A stretch of DNA of 64,000 nt from an uncultured Clostridia bacterium (GCA_946536315.1 CAMNEH010000001.1:592-64591); one strand, 5' to 3'. Positions 44,487 through 57,241 are shown, counted from the stretch's first letter. Notes: generated by a model from the sequence alone, not told the origin. A program made the numbers and translations.

Positions 44487-45037
44487 ATGCGCTGCGTATC
44501 TGGAAGGATATCCTGGCACAGGGACAGTACCTGTTCCGGGCTGGATTGGTCACGGCACTGATTCTTCTGGCCTCCGTGCTTTATCCGGACGGGCGGAGCG
44601 GCGCGGGGCAGCGCCTCAGGCGCCTGTTGAAGCGGCCGTGGCGGATCGCGTTCGCGTTTTATTGCGTGTTCATTCTGACCAGCACGGTCCTGGGCCGTTC
44701 GTTTGTCAATCCGACCGAGCACGTGCTCACCCATTTCGGATTCACACATCAGGGCGCGTTCAACGACCAGCTGGTGGAAAACATCCTGTTCTTCATTCCA
44801 CTGACGTTTTTTTACCTGAACGCGTTCCCGGTCCGGCACCCGTTCAGAAACGCGCTGCAGCTGTCCGTGGGTATGACGCTGCTGGTGGAAATGTGCCAGC
44901 TGCTGGGCAGGCTGGGGGAATTCCAGCTGGCGGACATGGCGCAGAATATCGTTGGCGGGCTGCTCGGCTGGGCGCTGTGGCGCCTCACCCGGATCCTGTT
45001 TCCGTCAGGTCGTTCCTCACGCGAAAACGGTTTGTAA
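44483..45037 (+). CDS. VanZ-like family membrane protein
   Basis: The GTG overlaps the upstream stop (GTGA). ENILFFIPLTFF and EMCQLL...LADMAQNIVGGLLGW resemble VanZ-family helices. Confidence 0.65.
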   Translation: MNALRIWKDILAQGQYLFRAGLVTALILLASVLYPDGRSGAGQRLRRLLKRPWRIAFAFYCVFILTSTVLGRSFVNPTEHVLTHFGFTHQGAFNDQLVENILFFIPLTFFYLNAFPVRHPFRNALQLSVGMTLLVEMCQLLGRLGEFQLADMAQNIVGGLLGWALWRLTRILFPSGRSSRENGL

Positions 45038-45064: not shown

Positions 45065-45093
45065 TTGACAGACCGGAGGATTCTTAATATAAT
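45065..45093 (+). promoter_or_regulatory. consensus SigA promoter of the RiPP operon
   Basis: TTGACA (45065-45070), exactly 17 nt, TATAAT (45088-45093). GGAGGG RBS at 45107-45112 lies before the TTG start at 45123. Confidence 0.8.
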
Positions 45094-45122
45094 TTGACTG
45101 TGAGCCGGAGGGATGAGGAAGC

Positions 45123-45599
45123 TTGCGCGATTACGCAACCGTGCGCACGATGCCTGCAGCGCAGTACTTTGCGCTGGTCAGGCAGTCGCTTCAGGATACG
45201 GGGCAGGCCTATGTCCGCGTGACGGGCGCCAGCATGCGCCCGCTGCTCAGGCACAGGCGGGACGGGGTCATCCTCGGACGGCCGGAAACGCTCCGCCGGG
45301 GCGATATCGTGCTGTTTGACCGCGGTGACGGCCGCTACGCGCTGCACCGCGTGATCCGTCTGCGGCCGACCGGGTTTGATATGGCCGGCGATCATCAGCG
45401 CAATGTCGAAACCGACCTGCCGTATGCGCAGGTCGTCGGTGTCGTGACCGCCGTTGATCGGGGCGGACGCCGTATCTCCCGTTCAAACTTTTTTTTTCAA
45501 TTATTGGCGTTTTTACTGCCACGTCTCGCGGAGCTGCGTATCAATGTACGGAAGGCGCTGACGGCAGGCCGGAGCCTTCTGAAGCGCGGACGGGCATGA
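45123..45599 (+). CDS. S26-family peptidase of the Ser-His (SipW/Sec11-like) type
   Basis: 158 aa. GASMRP carries the nucleophile Ser. GDIVLFDRGDGRYALHRVIRL matches the GDI..F...HR(V/I) box of ER/archaeal-type signal peptidases. No clear N-terminal TM anchor. Confidence 0.65.
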   Translation: MRDYATVRTMPAAQYFALVRQSLQDTGQAYVRVTGASMRPLLRHRRDGVILGRPETLRRGDIVLFDRGDGRYALHRVIRLRPTGFDMAGDHQRNVETDLPYAQVVGVVTAVDRGGRRISRSNFFFQLLAFLLPRLAELRINVRKALTAGRSLLKRGRA

Positions 45600-45606
45600 A
45601 AGGATC

Positions 45607-45879
45607 GTGCGCATGCGAATTCGACCGGGATATGTTCTGCGTCAGGTCATGGACATGTATGTTGTCGTGGGCGTGGGGAGCGAAACATACCGCCCAAACC
45701 AGATCATGAGTCTCAATGAGACCGGCGCGGCGCTCTGGCGTAAGCTGGAGCAGGGGGCTGACACGCAGACGCTCATCCGCAGCCTGACAGAGGAATTTGA
45801 AGTGGACCCTGTCACAGCCGGGAACGATCTGAACGCCTTCCTCACCCAGCTGCGCGAGCACGCGCTGATCGACGAATGA
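45607..45879 (+). CDS. PqqD-like RiPP recognition element protein
   Basis: 90 aa. LNETGAALWRKLEQGADTQTLIRSLTEEFEVDPVTAGNDLNAFLTQL is typical PqqD-family sequence. The stop overlaps the rSAM start (ATGA). Confidence 0.8.
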   Translation: MRMRIRPGYVLRQVMDMYVVVGVGSETYRPNQIMSLNETGAALWRKLEQGADTQTLIRSLTEEFEVDPVTAGNDLNAFLTQLREHALIDE

Positions 45880-47024
45880 GGGAAAAGGTCTGGCAGCCGG
45901 ACCGGATTGCCGACCAGCTTCAGATGCGGGCGATCCGCCTGCGCCGTCCGCTGAGCTGTACGCTGGAGCTGACCTGCCACTGCAACTTTCACTGCGTGAT
46001 GTGCTACATCCGCATGAATGAAGCGCAGGCGGCGGCCCATGGCCGGATGAGGACGCCGGAGGAGTGGCTGGACATGGCCCGGCAGCTCAGGGAAGCGGGC
46101 GTACTGTACCTGCACCTGACCGGCGGGGAGTGCACCCTGTACCCGGGGTTTGAGCGCCTGTACGCGAGGCTTTCGGAGATGGGCTTCAGACTGAGCGTGA
46201 TGAGCAACGCGGGAGCCTATACGGACAGCGTGCGCCGGGTGTTCACCCAGTATCCGCCGCTCAGCGTGGCGGTCACGCTGTATGGCGGCTGCGCGGCGAC
46301 CTACGGCCGGGTGACCGGCGACGCCGGAGGCTTTGACAGGGTCGTGGACAATATCCGCTTCCTGCAGTCCGCCGGGATCCCGGTGACCGTCAACTTTACC
46401 ATGATCCGGCAGAACGCGCAGGATTATCCAAAGGTGGCTGAACTGTGCCGTACGCTGGGCATCGCGTTCACGCTGAACACGGACATCACGCCCCATCGGT
46501 ATGACGCCTCGTATTCCGATGCGATGCGCTGCTCTCTGACCCCGGCGGAACGGGCGTGTGTCGCATGCCACTCCCCTTCTGAGGTGGACATTGCCCTGAA
46601 CGCGGCCAAGACGCTCGAACAGGAGCTGTCGCATTTCACGCCTCCGCAAGGGCCCGCGGGCGTCCTGCCCGAGCAGGAGGCCTGCATCGCCGGCTCCGCA
46701 GGCTGCGCGATCGCCTGGAATGGCGACATGCAGACCTGCGTCTCCCTGAACGCATGGCAGAGCGTGAAGCCGTTTGAAATCGGCTTTGAGGCCGCCTGGG
46801 CGCAGCTCAAAGCCGCGCAGGACAGGACGTTTGCGCGCCCGAGCGTATGCGCTCAGTGCGAAATGCGGACAGACTGCGATCACAACTGCCCCGGCAGGCG
46901 GTTCGAAGGCACGGGGAATATCCACACCCCCGACCCGCGGGTATGTCAGTACACGTACCTGCTGAGGCTGTACCGCGCCAGGCGCGGCACGGTGTCCACG
47001 CCAGGCACGCCCGGCTGCGTCTGA
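45876..47024 (+). CDS. radical SAM enzyme with C-terminal SPASM domain (peptide maturase)
   Basis: CNFHCVMC (Cx3Cx2C) lies near the N-terminus and is followed by a GGE motif (LTGGECTL). The C-terminal SPASM pattern is CIAGSAGCAIAWNGDMQTC ... CAQCEMRTDCDHNC ... VC. Confidence 0.9.
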   Translation: MREKVWQPDRIADQLQMRAIRLRRPLSCTLELTCHCNFHCVMCYIRMNEAQAAAHGRMRTPEEWLDMARQLREAGVLYLHLTGGECTLYPGFERLYARLSEMGFRLSVMSNAGAYTDSVRRVFTQYPPLSVAVTLYGGCAATYGRVTGDAGGFDRVVDNIRFLQSAGIPVTVNFTMIRQNAQDYPKVAELCRTLGIAFTLNTDITPHRYDASYSDAMRCSLTPAERACVACHSPSEVDIALNAAKTLEQELSHFTPPQGPAGVLPEQEACIAGSAGCAIAWNGDMQTCVSLNAWQSVKPFEIGFEAAWAQLKAAQDRTFARPSVCAQCEMRTDCDHNCPGRRFEGTGNIHTPDPRVCQYTYLLRLYRARRGTVSTPGTPGCV

Positions 47025-47079
47025 GCGTCCCGCCGCTGCCCTGATCCGGATGAAGACCGTACCACAGGAGGAATCATCC

Positions 47080-47262
47080 ATGAGAAAAAAGTATGTCGCG
47101 CCGAAACTGTTTGTCGATGTATACGCTGCGGACACCATGATCGCTTCGGACGACCCCACCCCGGTGTTTGAAGCCAAGGAAGGCAATCCGAACAATCAGA
47201 ACTGCTATGGCTATAAGGACATTCCCGGGGCGTTCGTAGACGGCAACATCTGCATCATGTGA
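47080..47262 (+). CDS. candidate RiPP precursor peptide A (60 aa, no GG site)
   Basis: AGGAGG (47066-47071) lies 8 nt before the ATG. Sequence: MRKKYVAPKLFVDVYAADTMIASDDPTPVFEAKEGNPNNQNCYGYKDIPGAFVDGNICIM. It has two Cys (C42, C58) and sits directly after the rSAM gene. Confidence 0.55.
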   Translation: MRKKYVAPKLFVDVYAADTMIASDDPTPVFEAKEGNPNNQNCYGYKDIPGAFVDGNICIM

Positions 47263-47266
47263 CGGG

Positions 47267-48103
47267 ATGACCTGTACGTTTGGCCGCTATGCGCTCGACA
47301 TCGGAGGTTTTCCGGAAGCGCTTCACTCCATCTCCGCGTCATGGAAGGACTACGTGGGTCAGACGGGAGTATCGCCGCCTGACGCTCGGCTCACGCTGCT
47401 GACCGCGCCGACAGCCCCGGATGAACGGACGGACGGATGGTATGCGTCAGCGGGAGAAGCGGAAGAGCTGGAAGTGACCTGCGTACGGGCCGGCCAGCGC
47501 CTGTTCACGCTGCGTTATGGCGGCGAGAGGGGCAAAGTGACGCTGATCGCCGACGAAGCGCGGCCAGGGAGCGTTCGCCTGGGCCTGCGGTACGGCATGC
47601 TGCTGGCCCTGCGAAAGACCTGTCTGGGCCTGCACGGTGTCACCCTGCTGTGCGGGAATGAGGTGGTGATCCTCTCCGCGCCCAGTGGGACCGGCAAAAC
47701 GACGCTGGCTTCGCTCCTGGAGCGGTATGAGGACGCCATTGTGATCAACGGCGATTTCGCGCTGCTTACGCCGGCGGAGGATGGTCTCTGGTTTGAACCC
47801 ACGCCCTTCTGCGGTACGTCACACAGGTGTCTGAACGTTCGTACGCGGGTGCACCGGATCGTTTTCCTGGGCCAGTCGCCTGTGAACGTCTGGCGGACCC
47901 TGGACGCGCGGGAAGCCGCCCTCTGTCTGCTGAGCAACGCATTCGTCCCCGAGTGGGACTTGTCCGCACAGCAGACGCTGCAGGAGCACGCGCTGCGCTG
48001 CATATCCCTTGCGCGCATGGACCGGTTTGACTTCGCGCCGACCCGTGAGGCGGCCGGGATCGTGATTCATCAGCAACTGCATGAAGAGCAATCTTCTCAG
48101 TAA
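47267..48103 (+). CDS. HprK C-terminal-domain-like P-loop protein (putative peptide kinase)
   Basis: 278 aa. LHGVTLLCGNEVVILSAPSGTGKTTLASLL resembles the HPr kinase/phosphorylase catalytic P-loop region. Confidence 0.65.
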   Translation: MTCTFGRYALDIGGFPEALHSISASWKDYVGQTGVSPPDARLTLLTAPTAPDERTDGWYASAGEAEELEVTCVRAGQRLFTLRYGGERGKVTLIADEARPGSVRLGLRYGMLLALRKTCLGLHGVTLLCGNEVVILSAPSGTGKTTLASLLERYEDAIVINGDFALLTPAEDGLWFEPTPFCGTSHRCLNVRTRVHRIVFLGQSPVNVWRTLDAREAALCLLSNAFVPEWDLSAQQTLQEHALRCISLARMDRFDFAPTREAAGIVIHQQLHEEQSSQ

Positions 48104-48123
48104 TAAAACATGGAGGTGTCAAC

Positions 48124-48360
48124 ATGGAGTTCAAACAACCGACCAGCCAGGCTGAAATGGATGCCCTGCGCAAGAGCCTGCGCCAGAAGCTCGACGATGC
48201 TGACCTCGAAAACGTGGTCGGCGGCAATGACGACGTCAAGGGCAAGGGGAATCCCACCCCCTGGACCTGCCTGTGGTGCGGCCAGACGTTCATGCTGAAA
48301 AAGCTGCAGGACGCCGCCAAGCACTGCGCGCATGACTGCCCGAAGAATCCGTACAAGTAA
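48124..48360 (+). CDS. double-glycine-leader precursor peptide B (78 aa; 44-aa Cys4 core)
   Basis: GGAGG lies 7 nt upstream. The leader ends LDDADLENVVGG, with hydrophobics at -4, -7 and -12. Core: NDDVKGKGNPTPWTCLWCGQTFMLKKLQDAAKHCAHDCPKNPYK. Confidence 0.75.
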   Translation: MEFKQPTSQAEMDALRKSLRQKLDDADLENVVGGNDDVKGKGNPTPWTCLWCGQTFMLKKLQDAAKHCAHDCPKNPYK

Positions 48361-48375
48361 TCGACCGGAGGTCTT

Positions 48376-48399
48376 GCCTGGCAGTTTGTTCTGCCAGGC
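48376..48399 (+). terminator. hairpin (attenuator-like) after precursor B
   Basis: GCCTGGCAG-TTTGTT-CTGCCAGGC is a perfect 9-bp stem followed by a weak T-tract (tgcctttc). Confidence 0.45.
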
Positions 48400-48429
48400 T
48401 GCCTTTCATGTGAAGTTGCTCTCAGACCG

Positions 48430-50139
48430 ATGTCAATGATAAACTATCTGGCGAAAATCAAGTCCATCCTCAAAGGCCGCACGCTGCCGGATATCGTCCG
48501 CTGGACCAGGCCGGTCCATGCGATGCTGCTGTGGCTGAGCGTTCTCAACGTGGTGAGCTCGCTGCTCTCGCTGGGCGTGACGCTGGTGACACGGGAGCTG
48601 ATCGACGGCGCAGTCAGCGCGAACGCGAATGCGCTCACACGCTACGGTGTGATGCTGGCAGCGCTGATCATCGTCATGCGCGTGCTCGATGTATTGTATT
48701 CCGGCCTGCGCAGCCGCGCCTCTGTCCGGCTGCAGCGGGAAATGCAGCGCATGATCACACAGGCGGTGCTTTCCAGGGAATATGCTTCGCTGAAATCCTA
48801 CCACAGCGGCGACCTGATCAACCGAATCTTTTCGGATGCGGAGGTGGTCAAGAACGGCGTCATCAACACGCTGGCGGGCATCATCAATACCCTGGTCAGC
48901 TTTATCGGCGCCGCGATCATCCTGATTTCCATGGACTGGCGCTTTGTGCCCGTGCTGATCCTGGGCGGACTGATCGGCGTCGTGATCACGCTGCTGTTCC
49001 GAAATCCCATGAAGCGCCGTCACACGCGCATGCAGGAGGCGGAGAGCGCGCTGCGCGCAGGCACGCAGGAAACGCTGGAAAGCCTGCGCGTCGTCAAGGC
49101 CAGCCTCTCAGAAGCGCGCGTAATGCGTCAGCTGGAGGACAGCCGTGAGCGCCTGAGCCTGGAACAGCTGCGCAACGCCCGCCTGAGCATCGCCATGAAC
49201 AACGGAATGGGTGTCCTGTTTGACGTGTCCTGGCTGGTGTGCAATCTATGGGGCTGCGTCAAGATTTACCGCGGTGAGTTCACCTACGGCGGCCTGGCCG
49301 CCATGATCCAGCTGATCGGCCGGATTCAGGCGCCGATCGCGTCAGCAGTCCAGATGGCCAGCCAGATCTACGGTGTGCTGGCGTCGGCAGAGCGTCTGCA
49401 GGAGGTCATTGGCCTGCCTGAGGAGCCGAACACGGGCAAAATCAGTTCGTTTGACCGGATCGCGCTCGAGAATGTTTCGTTCCAGTATGAGGATGGTACG
49501 GATGAGGTTCTGCTCAACGTCACCGCAAGCATCCGGCGCGGAGATTTTATCGCCCTGACCGGGCGGTCCGGCGGTGGAAAAACCAGCCTGTTCCACCTGC
49601 TGCTGGGCCTTTACCGCCCGACGCACGGCGCGGTGGTCTTTGAATCCGGCGCCGAGCGGATACTCGCCGGTCGGGGCACCCGGGCACTGTTCGCCTATGT
49701 GCCGCAGGGCAACACGCTGTTTTCCGGTACGCTTCGCGAAAACCTGACGCGTTTTACCGACAGCGCGTCGGATACGGAGGTCATTGCCGCGGCGAAGGCT
49801 GCCTGCATCGACGACCTCGTTGCGGAAATAGGGCTGGACGCCGTTCTGGGAGAACATGGTGTCGGTCTGTCAGAGGGCCAGGCGCAGCGGGTGGCGGTGG
49901 CGCGCGCCTTGCTCAGCCGGGCGCCGATCCTGCTGCTGGACGAAGCGACCTCCGCGCTGGATGAGGCGACGGAAGCGAACATGCTGACCAATATCGGCCG
50001 CATGCGCGATAAAACGGTCCTGATTGTGACGCATCGCCGCGCGGCACTTGACATTTGCGACGTTCGGTGGCATATTGAGGAGGGACGGATGTCCGTCACG
50101 CGCCTTGCGCGGCATTCTGACGATGGGGGAAGCATGTGA
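48430..50139 (+). CDS. ABC exporter, fused permease/ATPase (no peptidase domain)
   Basis: 569 aa. Six-TM domain, Walker A GRSGGGKTS, signature LSEGQAQRV, Walker B ILLLDEATS. Confidence 0.85.
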   Translation: MSMINYLAKIKSILKGRTLPDIVRWTRPVHAMLLWLSVLNVVSSLLSLGVTLVTRELIDGAVSANANALTRYGVMLAALIIVMRVLDVLYSGLRSRASVRLQREMQRMITQAVLSREYASLKSYHSGDLINRIFSDAEVVKNGVINTLAGIINTLVSFIGAAIILISMDWRFVPVLILGGLIGVVITLLFRNPMKRRHTRMQEAESALRAGTQETLESLRVVKASLSEARVMRQLEDSRERLSLEQLRNARLSIAMNNGMGVLFDVSWLVCNLWGCVKIYRGEFTYGGLAAMIQLIGRIQAPIASAVQMASQIYGVLASAERLQEVIGLPEEPNTGKISSFDRIALENVSFQYEDGTDEVLLNVTASIRRGDFIALTGRSGGGKTSLFHLLLGLYRPTHGAVVFESGAERILAGRGTRALFAYVPQGNTLFSGTLRENLTRFTDSASDTEVIAAAKAACIDDLVAEIGLDAVLGEHGVGLSEGQAQRVAVARALLSRAPILLLDEATSALDEATEANMLTNIGRMRDKTVLIVTHRRAALDICDVRWHIEEGRMSVTRLARHSDDGGSM

Positions 50140-50846
50140 GGACGTTTATCATCGGCGATATTCACGGCTGTGATAAGGCGCTGAACCGGCTGCTGATCCG
50201 GCTCAGACCGCATGAGGACCGTGATCAGCTGATTCTGCTGGGCGATTTGTTTGACCGCGGCCCGGACGCCTGGGAAGTGTTCCGGACCGTCAGACAGCTG
50301 GCGGACGCGTACGGCGAGCGCTTTGTCCTGATCCTGGGCAATCATGAGGATTTCCTGATGAGGGAGAAGCTCTCGCTGATGGAGCGCATGACGTGGAATC
50401 GCGTCGGCCGCCTGACGACGGTGCGCTCGTTCAAAGCGCACGGCGATGATCCGGCGTCTGCGATTCCCTGGCTGAAAGCGCACGCGCAGCTGACCTACCG
50501 CGACGAGCGCGTACAGTGCGCTCACGCGGCCGTCCGCGTCGAGCCTGTCGAGGCGAATGATCGTCAGACGCTGGTGCACGACCATCATACGCTCGTCGAA
50601 AACAGCTACGCGGGGCGGTTGACCGTCACCGGACATATGGCGCTGGAGGCGCCGACCTGGTTCGCCGGTGATCGCGAGACGGCGGAACAGATTCCGTACG
50701 GCGAATGGCGGCCCCTGCCGCAGCGGGGCGTGCTGTGCATAGATACCGGTTGCGGCAAGGGCGGGCGATTGACCGGGATGCAGCTGGAAGAGGACCCGGA
50801 CAGCGGCGCGCTGCGTTACCGGCTGGAGCGGGCGAAAGAAGAATAA
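50136..50846 (+). CDS. PPP-family metallophosphoesterase (Ser/Thr phosphatase / ApaH-like)
   Basis: The GTG overlaps the ABC stop (GTGA). Motifs: GDIHGC, GDLFDRGP, GNHE. Confidence 0.85.
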   Translation: MRTFIIGDIHGCDKALNRLLIRLRPHEDRDQLILLGDLFDRGPDAWEVFRTVRQLADAYGERFVLILGNHEDFLMREKLSLMERMTWNRVGRLTTVRSFKAHGDDPASAIPWLKAHAQLTYRDERVQCAHAAVRVEPVEANDRQTLVHDHHTLVENSYAGRLTVTGHMALEAPTWFAGDRETAEQIPYGEWRPLPQRGVLCIDTGCGKGGRLTGMQLEEDPDSGALRYRLERAKEE

Positions 50847-50864
50847 AAAAATCTTTCGGTTTTT
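50833..50864 (+). terminator. weak AT-rich terminator candidate
   Basis: CGAAAGA (50833-50839) pairs with TCTTTCG (50852-50858), followed by GTTTTT. It overlaps the stop codon. Confidence 0.35.
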
Positions 50865-51026
50865 CCTGCCATCCTGCCCCGGGGCGCGTATATAGTATTG
50901 GAATGAGTCCATCGGACATTCCACCGAGCGGAACAAAACGCCGCAGGACGGCTGTTCCGTGCCGATGGCGCTCTGCTCCGGAACAATGTTTGCAAAGTCC
51001 AACATCTTTTAAAGGAGGATTTGACC

Positions 51027-51251
51027 ATGGCACGCGTACAGCTCAACGACAATCAGCTGGAACAGGTTTCCGGCGGCGCTTTCAACTTCTACAAGAAGGA
51101 TGACCAGAACCAGTGCTACGTGGACGGTATGGGCACCTTCAACTGCAGCGCGGATGCGTCCAACTGGGTGCTCCAGCGCATGGCGACCACCGGCGCGCCG
51201 GTGTCCACCGTGATCGCGGAAGCGGTGGAAAAGGGACTGTTCTGGAAGTAA
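51027..51251 (+). CDS. double-glycine-leader bacteriocin precursor C (74 aa; 57-aa core)
   Basis: AGGAGG (51013-51018) lies 8 nt before the ATG. Leader: MARVQLNDNQLEQVSGG. Core: AFNFYKKDDQNQCYVDGMGTFNCSADASNWVLQRMATTGAPVSTVIAEAVEKGLFWK (C13-x9-C23). Confidence 0.8.
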   Translation: MARVQLNDNQLEQVSGGAFNFYKKDDQNQCYVDGMGTFNCSADASNWVLQRMATTGAPVSTVIAEAVEKGLFWK

Positions 51252-51330
51252 TCCGACGCTGATGCCCGCCTGACGCGGACACACCGTTCAGGCCGCATCG
51301 TATTCATGCCACAGTTAAAGACGCGTCTCA

Positions 51331-51382
51331 CCTCTCAGCCTTTCGGGGTTTCCCGCGAAGGCTGGGAGGTTGTACTGTTTTC
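51331..51382 (+). terminator. long imperfect hairpin plus T-rich tail after precursor C
   Basis: CCTCTCAGCCTTTCGGGG...CCCGCGAAGGCTGGGAGG pairs over about 17 bp with bulges, followed by TTGTACTGTTTTC. Confidence 0.6.
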
Positions 51383-51405
51383 GGCCAATCAAAAAGGAGC
51401 TTTCT

Positions 51406-51894
51406 ATGCAGGATCAGCAGAAACCCAAACTGTTTCGAGAAAAAAGCCTCGAGGCGATTGAGTCGCCTGAGGCGCTGAATGATTACCTTCGCGTCACTTC
51501 CCCCGGGGTCTGGCTGGTGATGGCCGCTGTGATCACGCTGCTGGTCGGGCTGCTTCTGTGGAGCATCCTGGGACGCATCGACACCACGATGCGCGTGGCG
51601 GTCGAGGCAGACAATGAGCGCACGGTTTGCTATGTGCCATACGACGCGCTGCAAAAGATGAAGGATGAAGGCAAGCTGACCATTGACGGGAAGGAGTATT
51701 CCCTGCAGCTCGGCGGTGAAGCCAGCGTGGTCATCGTCTCGGAGGAAACAAATCCCTATCTTCGCGTGGCGGGCGGCCTGCAGCTGGGGGATGTGACCGT
51801 GCAGGTGCCGGTCGCGGCGTCCCTGGCCGAGGGCGTATACTCAGGTACGATCGTGACGGACCGCCTTCAGCCGATCACGCTGCTGATACAGTGA
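51406..51894 (+). CDS. short HlyD-like secretion adaptor (NHLM-system type N-terminus)
   Basis: RBS AAGGAG is present. LFREKSLEAIESPEALNDYLRVTSPGVWLVMAAVITLLVGLLLW matches the N-terminus plus TM of bacteriocin-system HlyD adaptors, but the protein is only 162 aa. Confidence 0.6.
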   Translation: MQDQQKPKLFREKSLEAIESPEALNDYLRVTSPGVWLVMAAVITLLVGLLLWSILGRIDTTMRVAVEADNERTVCYVPYDALQKMKDEGKLTIDGKEYSLQLGGEASVVIVSEETNPYLRVAGGLQLGDVTVQVPVAASLAEGVYSGTIVTDRLQPITLLIQ

Positions 51895-54086
51895 GGGAGG
51901 GGAAACGCGTGGCTCGAAAACCAAATATTCCCCGTCCGGTTGAAAAAGGGTTTGTCCGGGTGCCGGTGGTCATGCAGCTGGAGACGCTGGAGTGCGGCGC
52001 CGCTTCGCTGACAATGGTCATGCATTACTACCGCAAGTGGATCCCCCTGGAACAGGCGCGCGTGGACTGCGGCGTGTCCATGAACGGCGCGAACGCGAAA
52101 AACATCCTCGCCGCCGCGCGAAGCTACGGCATGAAGGCAGACGCCTGGGGCCTGGAGGCGGAAGACCTGCCGGACCAGGGGCCGTTTCCGTGCATCATCC
52201 ACTGGGGATTCAATCATTTTGTGGTCCTCTGCGGCTTTCAGGGCAAGAAGGCGGTCATCAACGATCCGGCGCGGGGGAACGTGGTGGTCGACTGGGAAGA
52301 GTTTGACAGGGAGTTCACCGGCGTCTGCATCACGCTTGAGCCGGGGCCGGATTTCGTGCCCTCCGGAAAACCGAAGACCGTCATGGATTACGCGCGCGAG
52401 CGCCTGAAAGGGTCCGGCGCGGCGGTGACGTTCGTCGTTCTGACGACGACCATTTCGTCACTGATCGGCATCATTCAGCCGGCCTTTGCGCGGACCTTCC
52501 TGGACCGGCTGCTCACCGGACGGAATCCGGAGTGGCTCCGCCCGTTCATGCTGCTCTTTTCACTGCTGATTCTGGTCAGCATTGTCACGTCCTGGATTTC
52601 CGCGGTCTATTCCCTGCGTATTCAGGGCAAAATGGCATCCTATGGCAGCGCGTCGTACCTGTGGAAGGTGCTCAGGCTGCCGATGCAATTTTTCAGCCAG
52701 CGCATGTCGGCGGACATTGCGGACCGGCAGGCGACCAACGCGTCCATCGCCGGCACGATGGTCGAAACCTTCGCGCCGCTGGCGCTTCAGGCGCTGATGA
52801 TGGTGTTTTACCTGGTCGTCATGGTCAGCTACAGCCCGCTTCTGTCGGCGGTCGGCATCGGCGCGATCGCGCTGAACCTGCTGGTCTCTGCCATGGTGAC
52901 CAGGCGCCGCGTCAATATCACGCGCGTCCAGCAGCGTGACGCCGCCAAGCTCTCGTCAACCACCATGTCCGGCATCAGCATGATCGAGACCATCAAGTCC
53001 AGCGGCGCGGAAAACGGCTTTTTTGAGCGCTGGGCGGGATATCAGGCGAGCGTCAACACGCAGTCGGTCCGGTTCACCCGGCTGAATCTGTTTTTAGGTT
53101 CCCTGCCGCAGGCCATCACGACCATCGCCAATCTGGCCGTGCTCGGTCTGGGTGTGCTGCTCGTCCTGCGCGGCGAGTTCACTGTCGGTATGGTGATGGC
53201 CTTCCAGACCTTCCTTTCTTCGTTCATGTCCCCGGCGACGTCGCTGATCACCGCGGGCCAGTCGATGCAGGAAATGATCACGCAGATGGAGCGTGTGGAC
53301 GACGTGATGAGCTATCAGGAGGATCCCACGTTCGCCCCGCGCCCCAAGACCGGCGAATACCAGAAGCTGTCCGGCGCGGTCGAGCTGAAGAACGTGACGT
53401 TCGGCTATTCCCGGCTGGATAAGCCGCTCATCACTGACTTTTCCATGACGCTCAAGCCGGGACAGAAGGTTGCCTTTGTCGGCAGGACGGGCTGCGGCAA
53501 GTCCACCCTGGCCAAGCTGATCTCCGGATTGTACCAGCCCTGGAGCGGTACCGTCACATTTGACGGCGTCCCCCTGCAGGAAATAGACCGGAACGTGTTT
53601 ACAGGCTCCGTTTCCGTCATCGATCAGGACATTACGCTGTTCGAGGACACGATTTCCGAAAACATCCGGATGTGGGACGGTTCCATTGAAGACTTCGAAG
53701 TAACGCTGGCGGCGCGCGACGCGGGCATCTATGACGATATCGTGACCCGCGACGGCGGGTTTACGCACCGGCTGCTGGACGGCGGACGCGACCTGTCCGG
53801 CGGGCAGCGGCAGCGCCTGGAAATCGCGCGCGCCCTTGCGCAGGATCCGACCATCTGCATCATGGACGAGGCGACCTCGGCGCTCGACGCCAGGACGGAG
53901 CATGAGGTCATCCGCTCCATCAACGACCGCGGCATTACCTGTGTGATCATCGCGCACCGCCTGTCCACGATCCGCGACTGCGACGAGATCATCGTGCTGG
54001 ACAAGGGCAAAATCGTCGAACGCGGGACGCATGAGGAACTGTACGCCAAGGGCGGGCTGTATGCCAGCCTGGTGAGCAACGAGTAA
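51891..54086 (+). CDS. bacteriocin ABC exporter with N-terminal C39 peptidase domain
   Basis: The GTG overlaps the upstream stop. QLETLECGAASLTMVMHYY carries the C39 catalytic Cys region. Also has a six-TM domain, Walker A GRTGCGKST, signature LSGGQRQRL and ICIMDEATS. Confidence 0.9.
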   Translation: MREGKRVARKPNIPRPVEKGFVRVPVVMQLETLECGAASLTMVMHYYRKWIPLEQARVDCGVSMNGANAKNILAAARSYGMKADAWGLEAEDLPDQGPFPCIIHWGFNHFVVLCGFQGKKAVINDPARGNVVVDWEEFDREFTGVCITLEPGPDFVPSGKPKTVMDYARERLKGSGAAVTFVVLTTTISSLIGIIQPAFARTFLDRLLTGRNPEWLRPFMLLFSLLILVSIVTSWISAVYSLRIQGKMASYGSASYLWKVLRLPMQFFSQRMSADIADRQATNASIAGTMVETFAPLALQALMMVFYLVVMVSYSPLLSAVGIGAIALNLLVSAMVTRRRVNITRVQQRDAAKLSSTTMSGISMIETIKSSGAENGFFERWAGYQASVNTQSVRFTRLNLFLGSLPQAITTIANLAVLGLGVLLVLRGEFTVGMVMAFQTFLSSFMSPATSLITAGQSMQEMITQMERVDDVMSYQEDPTFAPRPKTGEYQKLSGAVELKNVTFGYSRLDKPLITDFSMTLKPGQKVAFVGRTGCGKSTLAKLISGLYQPWSGTVTFDGVPLQEIDRNVFTGSVSVIDQDITLFEDTISENIRMWDGSIEDFEVTLAARDAGIYDDIVTRDGGFTHRLLDGGRDLSGGQRQRLEIARALAQDPTICIMDEATSALDARTEHEVIRSINDRGITCVIIAHRLSTIRDCDEIIVLDKGKIVERGTHEELYAKGGLYASLVSNE

Positions 54087-54101
54087 AGGGGGGAGAAGTT
54101 C

Positions 54102-56282
54102 TTGGGGTGGTTTGACGAACAAATTGAATACAGAAAGAAGTATGAACGGGAGCTTCTCAGCGATTCCCTGGAGAATATCGCCCGGTCTGTCACCGGCCGC
54201 CGCATCGTCAGCGCGTTCAGGGATGACGCGGACGTCAGCGACGCAGTCTCCGCGCTGCTCAAGCATCTCGGCGTGAAGGAGAAGGAAGTCCCCGCCAACA
54301 TCAGCGGGCTGCAGGATAAGCTGGATTATCTGCTCTCCTCCACGGGCATCCTGTACCGTGAGGTCAAGCTGACCAAAGGCTGGCACGCGGACGCGATGGG
54401 CGCCATGATCGCGACGCTCAATGACGGCGCTGTCATCGCGGTGCTGCCCTCCGACCTGGGCGGCTATGAGTATACCGATCCCAAAACCGGCCAGCGCGTC
54501 CGTGTGAATGCCAAGCAGGAGGACAATATCAGCCGTGAAGCGCTGTGCTTCTACCGCCCGCTGCCTTTGCGCGCGCTGACGATCCGGGATCTGCTCAAAT
54601 ACATGTACAGCTGCCTGACGGTCCGCGACCTGGTCAGCTTTGCGCTGGCCGCCCTGGCGATCACGCTGGTCGGCATGCTGATGCCCAAGCTGAACCAGAT
54701 CCTGATCGGGCCGGTGATCTCCTCGGGCAGCGAACGGCTGCTGCTGGCGGTCATGCTGTTCATGCTGTTCGCTTCGATCGGCAGCATTCTGATCGCCATC
54801 ATCCGCGCCCTGCTGCTCAACCGCATCCGCTACAAAATGAATGTGGATGTGAGCGCGGCGACCATGATGCGCATCCTTTCGCTGCCGACGTCGTTCTTCA
54901 AGCTGTATTCCGCCGGCGAGCTGAACCAGTACATCAGCTACATGGACAGCCTCTGCACGACCATTGTGAATTCCGTGTTTTCCACGGCGGTGACCGGCGT
55001 GTTCTCACTGGTGTATCTCGGCCAGATCTCCGCGTTCGCGCCGAGCCTGGTATGGCCCAGCCTGCTGGTCACGCTGCTGACGCTGGGGGTCAGTCTGCTC
55101 TCCGCTTCGGTGCAGATGCGCATCGATTCGGAAAAAATGGTATACAGCGCGAAGGAGCGCGGCTTGGTTTACTCGCTGATCACGGGCATACAGAAAATCC
55201 GCCTGAGCGGCGCAGAAAACCGCGCCTTCAGCAAGTGGTCCCAGACGTATGTCCGCAGCTCTGAGCTGACGTACAATCCGCCGGCCATCATCCGTCTGTC
55301 AGCGGTCATCACCACGGCCATCTCGATGATCGGGACGGCGGTGGTCTATTATGTGTCTGTCCGAAACGGCGTGAGCGTGGCGGATTATTATGCGTTCAAC
55401 TCCGCGTACGCGTATATCTCCTCCGCATTCTCGTCGCTGGCCGCCATGGCGCTGTCCGCGGCGTCCATCCGACCGATCATTAAAATCATCGGGCCGTTCC
55501 TGGCCGCCGTTCCTGAAACCGCGGATGCCCGGGAAACGGTGACGCGTCTGTCCGGCAGCATCGAGCTGTCGCACGTGACCTTCGGGTACGATCCGGAGAG
55601 CAAGCCGCTGTTCGAGGACTTCTGCCTCACCATCCCGGCGCGTCAGTACGTGGCCATCGTCGGCCGGAGCGGCTGCGGCAAGTCCACGCTGGTGCGCCTG
55701 CTGCTGGGCTTTGAAAAACCCTCGCGCGGCGTCATCAACTATGACCGCAAGGACCTGCAGCGCCTGGACCTGCGCTCGCTGCGCCGCCAGATCGGCACGG
55801 TGATGCAGGATGGCCGGCTCTTCTCCGGCAGCATCTTTGACAATATCGTCATCTCCGCGCCGACGCTAAAGCTGGAGGACGCATGGAAGGCGGCGGAAAT
55901 CGCCGGGATCGCGGACGACATCCGCGACATGCCCATGGGCATGAACACCATCCTCCAGGAAGGCGGCGGCACGATCTCCGGCGGTCAGCGCCAGCGGCTG
56001 ATGATCGCCCGCGCGATCGCGCCTAAGCCGAAAATCCTGATTTTCGACGAGGCGACCTCAGCGCTGGACAACATCACGCAGAAGAAGGTCTCAGAGGCGC
56101 TGGACACCATGAAGTGCACCCGCATCATCATTGCGCACCGCCTCTCCACGATCAAAAACTGCGACCGGATCCTGGTGATCGACGGCGGAAAGATCGCGGA
56201 GGATGGCACCTACGAACAGCTGATGGCCAGGAACGGCATCTTTGCTGAGCTGGTCGAGCGTCAGCAGCTGGGTAACAAGTAA
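54102..56282 (+). CDS. partner ABC exporter with degenerate (Cys-less) C39-like N-domain
   Basis: 726 aa. The N-terminal ~150 aa lack the QxxxxCG motif. Walker A GRSGCGKST, signature ISGGQRQRL, ILIFDEATS. Confidence 0.85.
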   Translation: MGWFDEQIEYRKKYERELLSDSLENIARSVTGRRIVSAFRDDADVSDAVSALLKHLGVKEKEVPANISGLQDKLDYLLSSTGILYREVKLTKGWHADAMGAMIATLNDGAVIAVLPSDLGGYEYTDPKTGQRVRVNAKQEDNISREALCFYRPLPLRALTIRDLLKYMYSCLTVRDLVSFALAALAITLVGMLMPKLNQILIGPVISSGSERLLLAVMLFMLFASIGSILIAIIRALLLNRIRYKMNVDVSAATMMRILSLPTSFFKLYSAGELNQYISYMDSLCTTIVNSVFSTAVTGVFSLVYLGQISAFAPSLVWPSLLVTLLTLGVSLLSASVQMRIDSEKMVYSAKERGLVYSLITGIQKIRLSGAENRAFSKWSQTYVRSSELTYNPPAIIRLSAVITTAISMIGTAVVYYVSVRNGVSVADYYAFNSAYAYISSAFSSLAAMALSAASIRPIIKIIGPFLAAVPETADARETVTRLSGSIELSHVTFGYDPESKPLFEDFCLTIPARQYVAIVGRSGCGKSTLVRLLLGFEKPSRGVINYDRKDLQRLDLRSLRRQIGTVMQDGRLFSGSIFDNIVISAPTLKLEDAWKAAEIAGIADDIRDMPMGMNTILQEGGGTISGGQRQRLMIARAIAPKPKILIFDEATSALDNITQKKVSEALDTMKCTRIIIAHRLSTIKNCDRILVIDGGKIAEDGTYEQLMARNGIFAELVERQQLGNK

Positions 56283-56322
56283 CTGGCTGTCCCTTTTGTC
56301 CGAAGTTTTACGATTTCGGGTA

Positions 56323-56377: not shown

Positions 56378-57241
56378 ATGGCCTTTGCAGTATTTGCGGA
56401 CGGCAGCGCGAATCTGCCGAAGAAGTTTCTGGACGGGATCAGCCTCCTGCCCTGCAGTTTCAGCGTCAACGGGAAAGAAGAAGCCTATGCGGGCGACATC
56501 GACCGGTTTGACGCGCACGCATATTATGAATCCCTGCGCCATGGCACGATCGTGCGCACCAGCCTGCTCAATACGCAGCTCTTTCTTTCGCAGTTCATGC
56601 CCAAGCTGAAGCAGGGGCTGGACGTGATCTATATTTCGATGAGCTCAGGCATCAGCGGGACCTACCACGCGGCGACTGTCGCCGCGCAGGAGCTGATGGA
56701 ACAGTTTCGGAGCCGTTTTGTCCACATCGTGGATTCCAAGGGCTGCGGCTTCGGCAACGGCCTGCTCGCGATTCGCGCCGCGCAGCTCAGCCGGGAGGGG
56801 ATGGACGCGAAGGCGGCCGCGCGCGTGCTGGACGAGGACGTTCCCCATACCTGCCAGTACTTCACCGTGGATGACCTGAATTACCTGAAGAAGACGGGCA
56901 GGGTCAACGGCGTGACCGCCGCCATGGCCACGGTGCTCAATATCAAGCCCATTCTGTATGGCAACAAGGAAGGGCATATCGTTTCCTGCGGGAAGGTGCG
57001 CGGACGGCGCAAGGCCATTGAAAGCCTTGTGCAGAAATACCGGGAAAAGCGTCTGGAGGTGCCCTCTCCGACGGTCTTTATTTCCCACGGCGATTGCCTG
57101 GACGACGCTGAAACCCTCGCGGAGCTGGTCCGCGGTGTGACGCCGGATGCCAATATTCAGATCTGCCAGCATGAGCCGTTCTCCGGCGCGCACGTCGGTC
57201 CCGGCATGCTCGGACTGTTCTTCCACGGAAAAGAAAGATAA
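56378..57241 (+). CDS. DegV family fatty-acid-binding protein
   Basis: 287 aa. ADGSANLP and YISMSSGISGTY are typical DegV motifs. Confidence 0.9.
   Translation: MAFAVFADGSANLPKKFLDGISLLPCSFSVNGKEEAYAGDIDRFDAHAYYESLRHGTIVRTSLLNTQLFLSQFMPKLKQGLDVIYISMSSGISGTYHAATVAAQELMEQFRSRFVHIVDSKGCGFGNGLLAIRAAQLSREGMDAKAAARVLDEDVPHTCQYFTVDDLNYLKKTGRVNGVTAAMATVLNIKPILYGNKEGHIVSCGKVRGRRKAIESLVQKYREKRLEVPSPTVFISHGDCLDDAETLAELVRGVTPDANIQICQHEPFSGAHVGPGMLGLFFHGKER

What the first reader, a model, noticed from the sequence alone, without database searches (positions are those of the whole stretch)
45065..56282. Composite RiPP/bacteriocin island that does not map onto a characterised RiPP class
A perfect TTGACA-17-TATAAT promoter is followed by 12 same-strand genes, many with overlapping stop/start codons. 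In order: Ser-His S26-like peptidase, PqqD-like RRE, rSAM/SPASM maturase, 60-aa Cys peptide A, HprK-like P-loop protein, GG-leader peptide B, ABC exporter, PPP phosphatase. After a weak terminator come GG-leader peptide C, a short HlyD-like adaptor, a C39-ABC and a pseudo-C39 ABC. I see no LanB/LanC/LanM, YcaO, lasso cyclase, B2 transglutaminase or ATP-grasp gene. The combination of radical-SAM chemistry, a kinase/phosphatase pair and a non-canonical leader peptidase around three dissimilar precursors is not something I can assign to a known pathway. It is the strongest candidate for an undescribed system in this window.
Basis: partly seen in the sequence, partly recalled or inferred. Interest (0 to 1): 0.85.

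Follow-up and report, generated by a model that had tools for sequence, protein, structure and literature searches.

The report
Radical-SAM variant of phosphorylated-peptide gene cluster
This is a real, conserved 12-gene peptide-maturation and export island from an uncultured gut or rumen Clostridia bacterium; most of it matches a peptide family first described in 2026 (linear polyphosphorylated peptides), but it adds a radical-SAM cross-linking enzyme that has not been described for that family.

Summary
There is a perfect sigma-70 promoter at 45065-45093 and 12 tightly coupled same-strand genes with nearly all the predicted identities.

The interpretation needs updating. Genes 1-8 closely parallel the LPP (linear polyphosphorylated peptide) RiPP family (ribosomally made, post-translationally modified peptides) of Popov et al. 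2026. Shared parts:
- a SipW/archaeal-type signal-peptidase-like leader peptidase
[quoted passage not shown] - VanZ and Metallophos neighbours
- a PF14907 NTP-transferase gene upstream
- a location inside a cell-surface polysaccharide locus
- a YxxP leader with Ser exactly 18 residues after the Tyr

What is new is a radical-SAM/SPASM enzyme plus a Cys-containing core. This rSAM is linked to the kinase in 47 of 51 complete related loci from gut and rumen Bacillota and Coriobacteriia. I found no paper describing this combination.

This clade also carries a GG-leader, zinc-finger-like peptide B. Genes 9-12 form an NHLM-type C39 export module with a second GG peptide. The whole 12-gene order recurs in two other metagenomic lineages.

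Verdict: a new variant of a known kind. The product chemistry is inferred, not shown.

The parts
37624..38748 (+). PF14907 NTP_transf_5 gene (LppN-like), 6.4 kb upstream in the same-strand polysaccharide locus. Probable accessory tailoring enzyme.
   Evidence: Pfam E 4.2e-25. Homologous to the NTP_transf_5 genes that sit next to the SpI-like gene in other loci: 56% identity to L012, 20-26% to about 20 others.
44483..45037 (+). VanZ-family membrane protein immediately upstream of the promoter.
   Evidence: PF04892 E 2.2e-12. The same ALGX-VanZ-cassette order occurs in L084. VanZ is a frequent LPP neighbour (31 co-occurrences with the SpI peptidase in Suppl. Data 2 for the 126-member SSN cluster 1).
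45065..45093 (+). Sigma-70-type promoter, TTGACA-17 nt-TATAAT.
   Evidence: 12/12 consensus match.
45123..45599 (+). g1: SpI-like (SipW/archaeal-type signal peptidase I-like) leader peptidase, an LppS homologue.
   Evidence: PF00717 and TIGR02228 weak hits. BLAST to LppS E 1e-8 over the full length. 38% identity, E 5e-24, to the Desulfosporosinus SpI of SSN cluster 4. Ser37, His75 and Asp90 are invariant; Glu96 aligns with LppS D93.
45607..45879 (+). g2: discrete PqqD-type RiPP recognition element (RRE).
   Evidence: PF05402 63 bits. Lasso-type PqqD NCBIfam hits. 36% identity, E 2e-22, to the RRE next to the Desulfosporosinus SpI. Weak match to LppB, E 9e-5.
45876..47024 (+). g3: radical SAM/SPASM peptide maturase, translationally coupled to g2 by an ATGA overlap.
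   Evidence: PF04055 74 bits. Below every curated NCBIfam cutoff (ScmE 73.8 vs 400; SkfB 69.8 vs 300). Invariant C36/C40/C43 plus seven C-terminal Cys. Profile vs PDB: SkfB 7.6e-19, SuiB 2.7e-10.
47080..47262 (+). Peptide A (60 aa): the precursor. YxxPxL leader (Y5, P8, L10), invariant DTMIAS junction with Ser23, and a core with Cys42 and Cys58.
   Evidence: AGGAGG 8 nt upstream. Orthologues in 10 loci. Aligns without gaps to LPP leaders, with Ser at Tyr+18. No NCBIfam or Pfam model.
47267..48103 (+). g5: HprK-like P-loop kinase (LppK-like).
   Evidence: AF2 pLDDT 91. Foldseek top hits are HprK/P (1knx, 3tqf, 1kkl; E about 1e-5) and PEPCK. hhalign to LppK: prob 77.7%, E 1.9e-5, 114 columns. 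Relatives hit HprK_rel_A/B and ScmC weakly.
48124..48360 (+). Peptide B (78 aa): double-glycine leader (cleavage predicted after G34) and a core with invariant C49, C52, H67 and C72.
   Evidence: Alignment of 13 homologues. AF2 core is a beta-hairpin plus helix, pLDDT 72-81. Top Foldseek hits are C2H2/TRAF zinc fingers but are not significant. Found only in the close clade, always directly after the kinase gene.
48376..48404 (+). GC-rich 9-bp hairpin after peptide B; possible attenuator.
48430..50139 (+). g7: MsbA-like ABC exporter (permease plus ATPase) with no peptidase domain.
   Evidence: PF00664 and PF00005; MsbA models about 222 bits.
50136..50846 (+). g8: PPP-family (calcineurin-like) metallophosphatase, overlapping the stop codon of g7.
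   Evidence: PF00149 64 bits; ApaH/PrpE-like NCBIfam hits. Overlap shown. The ABC-PPP pair is conserved in L002, L004, L008, L009, L012, L068 and L084.
50833..50866 (+). Weak A/U-rich hairpin followed by UUUUU. It spans the g8 stop codon.
   Evidence: Not reported by the terminator scan.
51027..51251 (+). Peptide C (74 aa): GG leader and a two-Cys core; bacteriocin-like.
   Evidence: Orthologues in L012 (51%) and L084 (64%) keep the GG motif and both Cys. No family hit.
51370..51894 (+). g10: short (162-174 aa) HlyD-like membrane protein. The likely start is the ATG at 51406.
   Evidence: TIGR03794 positions 3-46 only, 34 bits vs cutoff 156. The same short form occurs in L004, L012 and L084.
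51891..54086 (+). g11: NHLM-type ABC transporter with an N-terminal C39 peptidase domain.
   Evidence: TIGR03796 892 bits (cutoff 853); PF03412 E 3.8e-30.
54102..56282 (+). g12: NHLM-type ABC partner with no detectable C39 domain.
   Evidence: TIGR03797 689 bits (cutoff 709.4). No C39 hit and no similarity to the g11 N-terminus.
56297..56322 (+). Terminator-like hairpin at the end of the island.

Best explanation
The island has two modules.

Module 1 (45123-50846) is a RiPP pathway related to the linear polyphosphorylated peptides (LPPs), with an added radical-SAM cross-linking step. The proposed order of events is:
1. The PqqD-type RRE (g2) binds the YxxPxL motif of the peptide A leader. This is inferred from LppB and lasso B1 precedent.
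2. The RRE presents the peptide to the radical SAM/SPASM enzyme (g3). That enzyme cross-links the core, most plausibly as thioethers from Cys42 and Cys58. This is inferred.
3. The HprK-like kinase (g5) phosphorylates Ser23, perhaps several times. Ser23 is invariant in this clade and occupies the same position relative to the leader Tyr as the phospho-Ser3 of LppA. This is inferred by register.
4. The SpI-like Ser/His peptidase (g1) removes the leader at the DT-M-IAS junction in an RRE-dependent way. This is inferred from LppS.
5. The MsbA-like pump (g7) exports the product.
6. The translationally coupled PPP phosphatase (g8) trims or removes the phosphate. This step is speculative.
7. The PF14907 NTP transferase upstream may decorate the phosphate, as in pseudomycoidin. 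This step is speculative.

Module 2 (51027-56282) is an NHLM-type C39-ABC export machine. It cleaves and secretes the GG-leader peptides: peptide C, and probably peptide B, whose own module encodes no GG peptidase.

The biological role is unknown. The system sits at the end of a 29-kb cell-surface polysaccharide locus, as its relatives do.
For: Gene identities.

Homology to LPP parts. g1 vs LppS gives E 1e-8, with the catalytic Ser and His aligned and invariant. The g5 profile vs LppK gives hhalign E 1.9e-5. g2 vs LppB gives E 9e-5.

Leader register. Y-x-x-P-x-[LIVM] and Ser at Tyr+18 align without gaps in both LppA sequences and in all 11 clade precursors.

LPP biochemistry comes from the paper, not from this work. 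It covers Ser3 polyphosphorylation by LppK, RRE-dependent cleavage by LppS (S29/H68/D93), location in capsule loci, and VanZ and Metallophos neighbours.

Co-occurrence. Among 51 complete loci holding a related rSAM, 47 have the kinase, at least 40 the RRE, 27 the SpI, 29 an ABC exporter, 18 NTP_transf_5 and 25 cps markers.

Conservation. Module 1 is conserved at 44-66% identity in about 10 loci. The full 12-gene order is conserved in L012 and L084.

Window context. Positions 16.4-45 kb hold Wzz/Tyr-kinase, LytR, LicD, GT2, Wzy, NTP_transf_5, ALGX and VanZ genes.

Against: - No chemistry is shown for any member that carries the rSAM.
- g5 has no significant sequence hit to HprK models, and BLAST to LppK is not significant.
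- The acidic-Thr pair of the LPP motif is shifted by one residue, and most other motif positions differ.
- The LPP authors classed the RREs next to the SSN-cluster-4 SpIs, which are the relatives of g1 and g2, as 'other' rather than LPP-type.
- Some close-clade cores have no Ser or Thr other than the junction Ser. In other sub-families the invariant Ser is C-terminal instead, so the phosphorylation site may differ between clades.
- The NTP transferase is 6.4 kb away in this window.
- Module 2 is absent within 10 kb of module 1 in L002, L008 and L009.
- The ABC proteins of module 2 are far more conserved (84-87%) than the module 1 enzymes (44-66%). This may mean a separate evolutionary history.
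Confidence: 0.6

Rival explanations
1. Two independent systems lie side by side: an rSAM RiPP operon and an unrelated NHLM-exported class II bacteriocin (peptide C). There is no functional coupling between them, and peptide B is processed by a transporter encoded elsewhere.
For: Module 1 occurs without module 2 within 10 kb in L002, L008 and L009. In L004 the NHLM pair lies on the opposite strand, 5 kb away. A 180-nt gap with a weak hairpin separates g8 from peptide C. The conservation levels are very different: 84-87% for the NHLM ABC proteins and 44-66% for the module 1 enzymes.
Against: The identical 12-gene order is found in three lineages that have diverged to about 55-65% identity: the window, L012 and L084. 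The NHLM pair is also close by in L004. Peptide B has a strictly conserved GG cleavage motif, yet module 1 has no C39 peptidase.
Confidence: 0.3
2. Module 1 makes an ordinary sactipeptide or ranthipeptide bacteriocin. The P-loop protein is an ATPase or scaffold rather than a peptide kinase, the Metallophos protein is unrelated housekeeping, and the S24-like protein is just a leader protease.
For: The rSAM/SPASM enzyme is nearest to SkfB among solved structures. The core contains Cys. g5 lacks sequence-level HprK hits.
Against: The kinase-like gene accompanies this rSAM family in 47 of 51 complete loci. Its fold matches HprK/P best, and its profile matches the proven peptide kinase LppK. The junction Ser is in register with the LPP phosphosite. 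In the 21 type-B precursors the C-terminal residue is always Ser, which is the paeninodin-type kinase target. The rSAM scores far below every curated sacti/ranthi maturase cutoff.
Confidence: 0.12
3. The product is not an antimicrobial. It is a cell-envelope component or signal tied to capsule or exopolysaccharide synthesis, for example a phospho-glycosylated peptide made together with the adjacent polysaccharide locus.
For: The cassette lies inside or at the edge of polysaccharide loci in the window. In about 20 Acutalibacteraceae loci it sits between CpsB/CpsCD and NTP_transf_5/Bac_transf. In L002, L004 and L009 it follows Wzz-kinase, a giant protein and LytR. LPP and paeninodin clusters show the same association, and the lpp genes are co-induced with an EPS gene. 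No immunity gene was identified in module 1.
Against: Type-B and simple type-C loci lack cps genes. The window carries dedicated exporters and classic GG-leader peptides typical of bacteriocins. The role of LPPs themselves is unknown.
Confidence: 0.25

Closest known systems
Linear polyphosphorylated peptides (LPP; lppA-K-B-S-D-N of Paenibacillus alginolyticus; Popov et al., Nat Commun 2026, PMC13381572)
   Same: Shared features: an SpI-like Ser/His leader peptidase, a discrete PqqD-type RRE, an HprK-like kinase and an MsbA-like exporter. Also shared: a PF14907 NTP transferase in the locus, VanZ and Metallophos neighbours, a position in a polysaccharide locus, and a YxxP leader with Ser at Tyr+18.
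   Different: The window adds a radical SAM/SPASM enzyme and a Cys-containing core, so the product is probably not linear. Sequence identity to LppS and LppB is only 21-23%. The authors grouped the relatives of g1 and g2 in a separate SSN cluster (number 4) and classed their RREs as 'other'. The host is Clostridia rather than Bacilli. This clade also has peptide B and an NHLM exporter.
Paeninodin/pseudomycoidin-type lasso peptide tailoring (HprK-like kinase plus nucleotidyltransferase)
   Same: An HprK-like kinase acts on a leader-bearing precursor that is recruited through a [Y/W]xxP motif and a discrete RRE. An NTP transferase can add sugars to the phosphate. In related type-B loci the C-terminal Ser is invariant (21 of 21).
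   Different: The 12 genes and their 10-kb flanks contain no macrolactam synthetase and no B2 peptidase. In the window clade the peptide does not end in Ser.
Sactipeptide and ranthipeptide maturases (SkfB, AlbA, CteB/SCIFF type)
   Same: A radical SAM enzyme with C-terminal auxiliary Fe-S Cys motifs, dependence on an RRE, and a Cys-bearing core. SkfB is the best solved-structure match.
   Different: Scores are far below all curated family cutoffs. The RRE is a separate protein. A kinase, a phosphatase and an SpI-like peptidase are not part of any described sacti/ranthi pathway in the papers I could search.
NHLM/NHLP bacteriocin export system (TIGR03794, TIGR03796, TIGR03797)
   Same: g11 passes the TIGR03796 cutoff and g12 falls just below the TIGR03797 cutoff. 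The order of adaptor, C39-ABC and ABC partner is kept.
   Different: The adaptor is a 162-aa stub. Peptides B and C gave no hit to any NCBIfam or Pfam family, so they are not recognisable NHLP- or Nif11-type precursors.
SynChlorMet cassette (ScmC/ScmD/ScmE/ScmF; NCBIfam TIGR04249-04251), defined only by comparative genomics
   Same: The same trio of part types: an HprK-like protein, a PqqD protein and a radical SAM/SPASM enzyme. ScmE is the top NCBIfam hit of g3, and ScmC is a weak hit of kinase relatives.
   Different: All scores are far below the cutoffs: 73.8 vs 400 for g3, 19-29 vs 125 for the kinase relatives, and no ScmC hit for g5 itself. My recollection is that the SynChlorMet cassette is defined without an SpI-like peptidase and without an identified precursor; I did not check this with the tools.

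Membership tests
LPP (linear polyphosphorylated peptide) RiPP family | SpI-like (archaeal-type signal peptidase I) leader peptidase with a Ser/His/Asp triad | tested here: met
   g1 vs LppS E 1e-8 over the full length. Ser37 and His75 are invariant. The LppS D93 column holds Glu96 (88% Glu in this family), and Asp90 is invariant.
LPP (linear polyphosphorylated peptide) RiPP family | Discrete RRE of the LPP clade | tested here: inconclusive
   g2 is a discrete PqqD protein, but its match to LppB is only 23% identity, E 9e-5. Its closest listed relative (36%, E 2e-22) was classed 'RRE other' by the authors. No RRE phylogeny was run.
LPP (linear polyphosphorylated peptide) RiPP family | HprK-like kinase (LppK) | tested here: met
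   Fold match to HprK/P. hhalign to LppK E 1.9e-5, prob 77.7%. BLAST is not significant. The LppK sequence was rebuilt from a machine-read PDF, so small errors are possible.
LPP (linear polyphosphorylated peptide) RiPP family | PF14907 NTP transferase (LppN) in the cluster | tested here: met
   Present at 37624-38748 on the same strand but 6.4 kb upstream. Homologous to the SpI-adjacent copies in other loci. Similarity to LppN itself was not tested.
LPP (linear polyphosphorylated peptide) RiPP family | MsbA-like exporter | tested here: met
   g7 scores about 222 bits against the MsbA models and has no C39 domain.
LPP (linear polyphosphorylated peptide) RiPP family | Leader motif YxxPxVLxHQxIxFETxxS | tested here: inconclusive
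   Y1, P4, a hydrophobic residue at 6 and S19 are kept in register. The acidic-Thr pair is shifted by one residue, and the HQ, I and F positions are not kept.
LPP (linear polyphosphorylated peptide) RiPP family | Linear product: no cyclising or cross-linking enzyme | tested here: not met
   A radical SAM/SPASM gene is translationally coupled to the RRE gene.
LPP (linear polyphosphorylated peptide) RiPP family | Polyphosphorylation of a core Ser near the cleavage site | not testable with these tools
   Needs mass spectrometry.
Sactipeptide / ranthipeptide | Radical SAM maturase with SPASM or twitch auxiliary clusters acting on a Cys-containing core | tested here: met
   CxxxCxxC plus seven invariant C-terminal Cys. 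Peptide A has two Cys.
Sactipeptide / ranthipeptide | Membership of a curated maturase family (AlbA, SkfB, StsB and the like) | tested here: not met
   Best scores are 38-74 bits against cutoffs of 300-850. A SCIFF maturase model was not among the 25 families listed.
Sactipeptide / ranthipeptide | S-to-C(alpha/beta/gamma) thioether in the product | not testable with these tools
   Needs MS/NMR.
NHLM/NHLP bacteriocin export system | C39-ABC subunit (TIGR03796) | tested here: met
   892.1 bits against a cutoff of 853.3.
NHLM/NHLP bacteriocin export system | Second ABC subunit (TIGR03797) | tested here: inconclusive
   689 bits against a cutoff of 709.4, over the full length.
NHLM/NHLP bacteriocin export system | Full-length HlyD-type secretion protein (TIGR03794) | tested here: not met
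   34 bits against a cutoff of 156.2; only profile positions 3-46 of 421 match.
NHLM/NHLP bacteriocin export system | NHLP- or Nif11-type precursor | tested here: not met
   Peptides B and C hit no NCBIfam or Pfam family at E of 0.01 or better.
Lasso peptide (paeninodin type) | Macrolactam synthetase (C) and B2 transglutaminase-like peptidase | tested here: not met
   Neither is among the 12 genes or within 10 kb on either side by precomputed Pfam.
SynChlorMet cassette | ScmC, ScmE and ScmF equivalogs | tested here: not met
   g3 scores 73.8 and 60.9 bits against cutoffs of 400. g5 has no ScmC hit. Kinase relatives score 19-29 bits against a cutoff of 125.

The most novel reading that the evidence does not exclude
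A large, undescribed RiPP class exists in gut and rumen anaerobes. In it, a ribosomal peptide is first cross-linked by a radical SAM enzyme and then (poly)phosphorylated on a defined Ser. That phosphate is the attachment point for sugars or a polysaccharide built by the surrounding capsule genes, through the PF14907 transferase and the glycosyltransferases. The product would be a ribosomally templated, peptide-linked cell-surface glycopolymer rather than a bacteriocin. In the window's clade the dedicated phosphatase would make the phosphorylation a transient checkpoint that gates leader removal and export.
Probability: 0.12. Interest if true: 0.9.

Novelty: new variant of a known kind. Interest (0 to 1): 0.6.

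Why it matters
If the model is right, three things follow.

First, the just-described LPP and SpI-peptidase logic is not confined to linear peptides of Bacilli. It would be a modular tailoring platform made of a recognition protein, a kinase, an SpI peptidase and an exporter. Clostridia and Coriobacteriia of the gut and rumen would have combined that platform with radical-SAM cross-linking. This would be the first radical-SAM RiPP family with an obligate kinase and a signal-peptidase-like leader protease.

Second, the family is large. About 1,660 clusters at 50% identity match the kinase profile at E of 1e-10 or better, although that profile may also pick up LPP-type and lasso-type kinases. 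More than 360 rSAM proteins match in this clade alone, nearly all from uncultured organisms.

Third, the repeated placement inside capsule loci points to a still unknown link between modified peptides and the cell envelope. One cultured carrier, Collinsella ihumii GD8 (L036), offers an experimental entry point.

Tried and rejected
- Sequence-level confirmation of 'HprK-like' for g5 failed. Pfam, NCBIfam, and PDB phmmer and profile searches gave only P-loop hits. Only the fold search and hhalign against LppK gave support.
- PF27840 is precomputed on some g5 relatives, but it is not in the local Pfam copy, so I could not learn its name.
- Peptide A and nine related precursors hit no NCBIfam model.
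- 'Pseudo-C39' for g12 has no support from Pfam or from BLAST against the g11 C39 domain.
- The peptide B zinc-finger idea remains a suggestion. The AF2 core is beta-beta-alpha and the top Foldseek hits are zinc fingers, but all have E above 1.
- Rfam found nothing in the window.
The nearest species-level genomes are Christensenellales and Clostridia MAGs at no more than 62% rSAM identity.
- Literature searches combining HPr kinase or a signal peptidase with radical SAM RiPPs found no description of this combination. The held main text and supplements of the LPP paper do not mention radical SAM, but Supplementary Data 2 is truncated in the stored copy.
- I considered a lanthipeptide-like route (kinase followed by elimination) and rejected it, because no lyase or cyclase domain is present.

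Full report
**What is in the sequence.**
Between 45065 and 56322 the + strand carries a perfect sigma-70 promoter, TTGACA-17-TATAAT at 45065-45093. It is the only 12/12 match in 13.5 kb. Twelve ORFs follow.

Gene packing is operon-like. g2/g3, g7/g8 and g10/g11 overlap by 4 nt. Other gaps are 4-20 nt. Each of the three small peptide genes has a GGAGG-type ribosome-binding site. A strong GC-rich hairpin follows peptide B. A weak A/U-rich hairpin plus UUUUU follows g8. A terminator-like hairpin closes the island at 56297-56322. GC content (0.59-0.65) is like the rest of the window at 0.617. Rfam finds no RNA family in the window.

**Gene identities.**
- g1 is a weak S24/S26 hit. Its best NCBIfam hit is archaeal-type signal peptidase I.
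- g2 is a PqqD-type recognition protein.
- g3 is a radical SAM enzyme. C36, C40 and C43 are invariant, as are seven C-terminal Cys typical of SPASM. It falls far below every curated maturase cutoff. Its nearest solved relatives are SkfB and SuiB.
- g5 gives only P-loop hits by sequence. Its confident AlphaFold model (pLDDT 91) matches HprK/P and PEP carboxykinase best.
- g7 is an MsbA-like ABC exporter without a peptidase domain. g8 is a PPP-family metallophosphatase.
- g11 passes the curated cutoff for the NHLM C39-ABC subunit. g12 is just below the cutoff for its partner. g10 is a 162-174-aa stub that matches only the N-terminus of the NHLM HlyD protein.
- The 'pseudo-C39' label for g12 could not be verified.

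**Is the gene set a unit?**
The window is identical over this region to an ENA metagenome scaffold. The rSAM has more than 360 homologues at 58-66% identity.

Contexts from metagenomes and from one genome per species show module 1 conserved in about ten loci. That set is SpI-like, RRE, rSAM, peptide A, kinase, peptide B, ABC and PPP. In one locus the ABC-PPP pair has moved upstream.

The complete 12-gene order recurs in L012 and L084. L084 also has ALGX-VanZ upstream. Identities to L084 are 44-66% for the module 1 enzymes and 84-87% for the NHLM ABC proteins.

A far wider family has rSAM identity of 28-35%. It spans Oscillospiraceae, Acutalibacteraceae, Lachnospiraceae, Ca. Fimenecus, Atopobiaceae and Collinsella ihumii, plus two contigs binned as Bacteroidaceae. 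It keeps the rSAM with the kinase-like gene in 47 of 51 complete loci. The RRE is present in at least 40, the SpI-like peptidase in 27 and an ABC exporter in 29. The kinase profile finds 53 clusters at 50% identity at E of 1e-30 or better, and 1,661 at 1e-10 or better. Chance juxtaposition of the module 1 genes is excluded.

**The precursors.**
Every sub-family has one to three small genes encoding M-K-K-x-Y-x-x-P-x-[LIVM] leaders. These run on to a conserved I-A at positions 17-18 after the Tyr and then a Cys-containing core. No curated model recognises them.

In the window clade the junction D-T-[M/V]-I-A-S is nearly invariant, and its Ser is invariant in all 11 sequences. The core carries N-Q-N-C and a distal [N/D]-x-C. 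In the 'type B' sub-family all 21 precursors end in Ser.

**The link to known biology.**
A May 2026 paper (Popov et al., PMC13381572) defines the linear polyphosphorylated peptides (LPPs). According to that paper:
- The core genes are an SpI-like leader peptidase LppS, a discrete RRE LppB, an HprK-like kinase LppK, an NTP transferase LppN and an MsbA-like exporter LppD.
- The clusters are embedded in capsular polysaccharide loci.
- VanZ and Metallophos are recurrent neighbours.
- The leader motif is YxxPxVLxHQxIxFETxxS.
- LppK adds several phosphates to core Ser3.
- LppS (S29/H68/D93) cuts after Thr-1, and only when LppB presents the peptide.

I tested the window against that paper's sequences:
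- g1 aligns to LppS over its full length (E 1e-8). The catalytic Ser and His are matched and invariant in 41 homologues.
- g1 is 38% identical (E 5e-24) to the Desulfosporosinus SpI of the paper's unstudied SSN cluster 4. g2 is 36% identical to that protein's neighbouring RRE.
- The g5 family profile aligns to LppK over 114 columns (hhalign E 1.9e-5).
- Peptide A aligns without gaps to the two LppA leaders. Its invariant Ser23 falls on the column of the LppA phosphosite, Tyr+18.

The window's surroundings fit as well. Positions 16.4-45 kb form a cell-surface polysaccharide locus: Wzz/Tyr-kinase, a 1,953-aa RHS-repeat protein, LytR-CpsA-Psr, an acyltransferase, LicD, GT2 glycosyltransferases, an epimerase, Wzy, a PF14907 NTP transferase at 37624-38748, ALGX twice, DUF6020 and VanZ. 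In about 20 Acutalibacteraceae loci the cassette sits between CpsB/CpsCD and NTP_transf_5/Bac_transf.

HprK-like kinases and NTP transferases are also the known tailoring pair of paeninodin- and pseudomycoidin-type lasso peptides.

**What is not known.**
The LPP paper's main text and held supplements never mention a radical SAM enzyme, although one supplement is truncated in the stored copy. My literature searches found no description of an rSAM RiPP with an HprK-like kinase or an SpI-like peptidase.

The nearest bioinformatic analogue is the SynChlorMet cassette. It has an HprK-like ScmC, a PqqD protein and two rSAM/SPASM proteins. The window proteins are far below its cutoffs.

Peptide B is confined to the close clade and always follows the kinase gene. 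It has a conserved GG leader and an invariant C-x2-C...H-x4-C core. That core is predicted to be a beta-hairpin plus helix, like a C2H2-type zinc finger, but the structural matches are not significant. Module 1 has no GG peptidase, so the C39-ABC of module 2 is the obvious processing enzyme for peptides B and C.

**Most likely mechanism.**
Steps marked inferred or speculative have not been shown for any member.
1. The RRE binds the YxxPxL leader (inferred).
2. The rSAM/SPASM enzyme cross-links Cys42 and Cys58, probably as thioethers (inferred).
3. The kinase phosphorylates Ser23 (inferred).
4. The SpI-like peptidase removes the leader at the DT-M-IAS junction (inferred).
5. The MsbA-like pump exports the product. 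The coupled PPP phosphatase trims the phosphate. The upstream NTP transferase may decorate it (speculative).
6. Module 2 cleaves and exports the GG peptides.

The biological role, whether antagonism or a cell-envelope function, is open.

**Verdict.**
This is a real, conserved and widely distributed system. It is a new variant of a very recently defined kind (LPP-like plus radical SAM), joined to a standard NHLM exporter. It is not categorically new.

Noticed in passing
window 16462-45037 (+ strand): A 29-kb same-strand cell-surface polysaccharide locus precedes the island. It holds Wzz/Tyr-kinase (16462-18015), LytR-CpsA-Psr (23804-24874), an acyltransferase, a SASA esterase, LicD, GT2, an epimerase, Wzy (32265-33467), NTP_transf_5, ALGX twice, DUF6020 and VanZ. 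In L002, L004 and L009 the trio of Wzz-kinase, giant protein and LytR directly abuts the cassette. The window lineage therefore appears to have about 20 kb of glycan genes inserted between them.
   Followed up: partly
window 17924-23785 (+): A 1,953-aa protein whose only Pfam hit is an RHS repeat. Orthologues of 1,950-2,030 aa sit upstream of the cassette in L002, L004 and L009. Function unknown.
   Followed up: no
L043, L051, L052, L054, L056, L069-L073, L077, L080, L082 (about 8-11 kb in each locus): A 'type B' architecture runs in this order: a giant secreted GH2-domain protein (about 2,500 aa), an 80-aa precursor, a 240-aa lipoprotein-like protein, the HprK-like kinase, the rSAM and PqqD. 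It has no SpI peptidase and usually no ABC exporter nearby. All 21 precursors end in Ser, which is the target position of paeninodin-type kinases.
   Followed up: partly
L002 12698-13261; also L004, L006, L008, L009, L011: Sister loci carry a membrane-anchored thioredoxin-like protein (YCPWC motif, about 185 aa, no Pfam hit) between peptide B and the ABC gene. It is absent from the window, L012 and L084. Those three are the loci with the adjacent co-oriented NHLM module, and their peptide A has only two Cys.
   Followed up: no
L036 (Collinsella ihumii GD8, NZ_FCOU01000008.1) 9.2-17.8 kb: This is the only named cultured isolate among the loci returned. It has PqqD, two tandem rSAM genes each followed by its own YxxP precursor, and an ABC exporter, an SpI-like peptidase and a kinase on the opposite strand.
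   Followed up: no
L068: An ABC-PPP pair 61% and 57% identical to g7 and g8 lies next to a distant rSAM (32% identity) and a 516-aa P-loop protein. The exporter-phosphatase pair may therefore move between sub-families.
   Followed up: no
window 47267-48103 relatives (e.g. P0139, P0149): A precomputed Pfam family PF27840 is recorded on some close relatives of g5. It is absent from the local Pfam copy, so its name and definition are unknown here.
   Followed up: partly
L002 15746-16506; also L008, L009: In loci without the NHLM module, the phosphatase gene is followed by a 93-121-aa protein and, in L002, an ECF-type sigma-70 factor (L008 and L009 have a 162-aa ORF that I did not annotate). This may be a dedicated regulator of the cassette.
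   Followed up: no
window 56378-58478: A DegV/FakB-like protein and a NAGPA (phosphodiester glycosidase) domain protein flank the island downstream. They are probably unrelated, although NAGPA acts on sugar-phosphodiester bonds.
   Followed up: no
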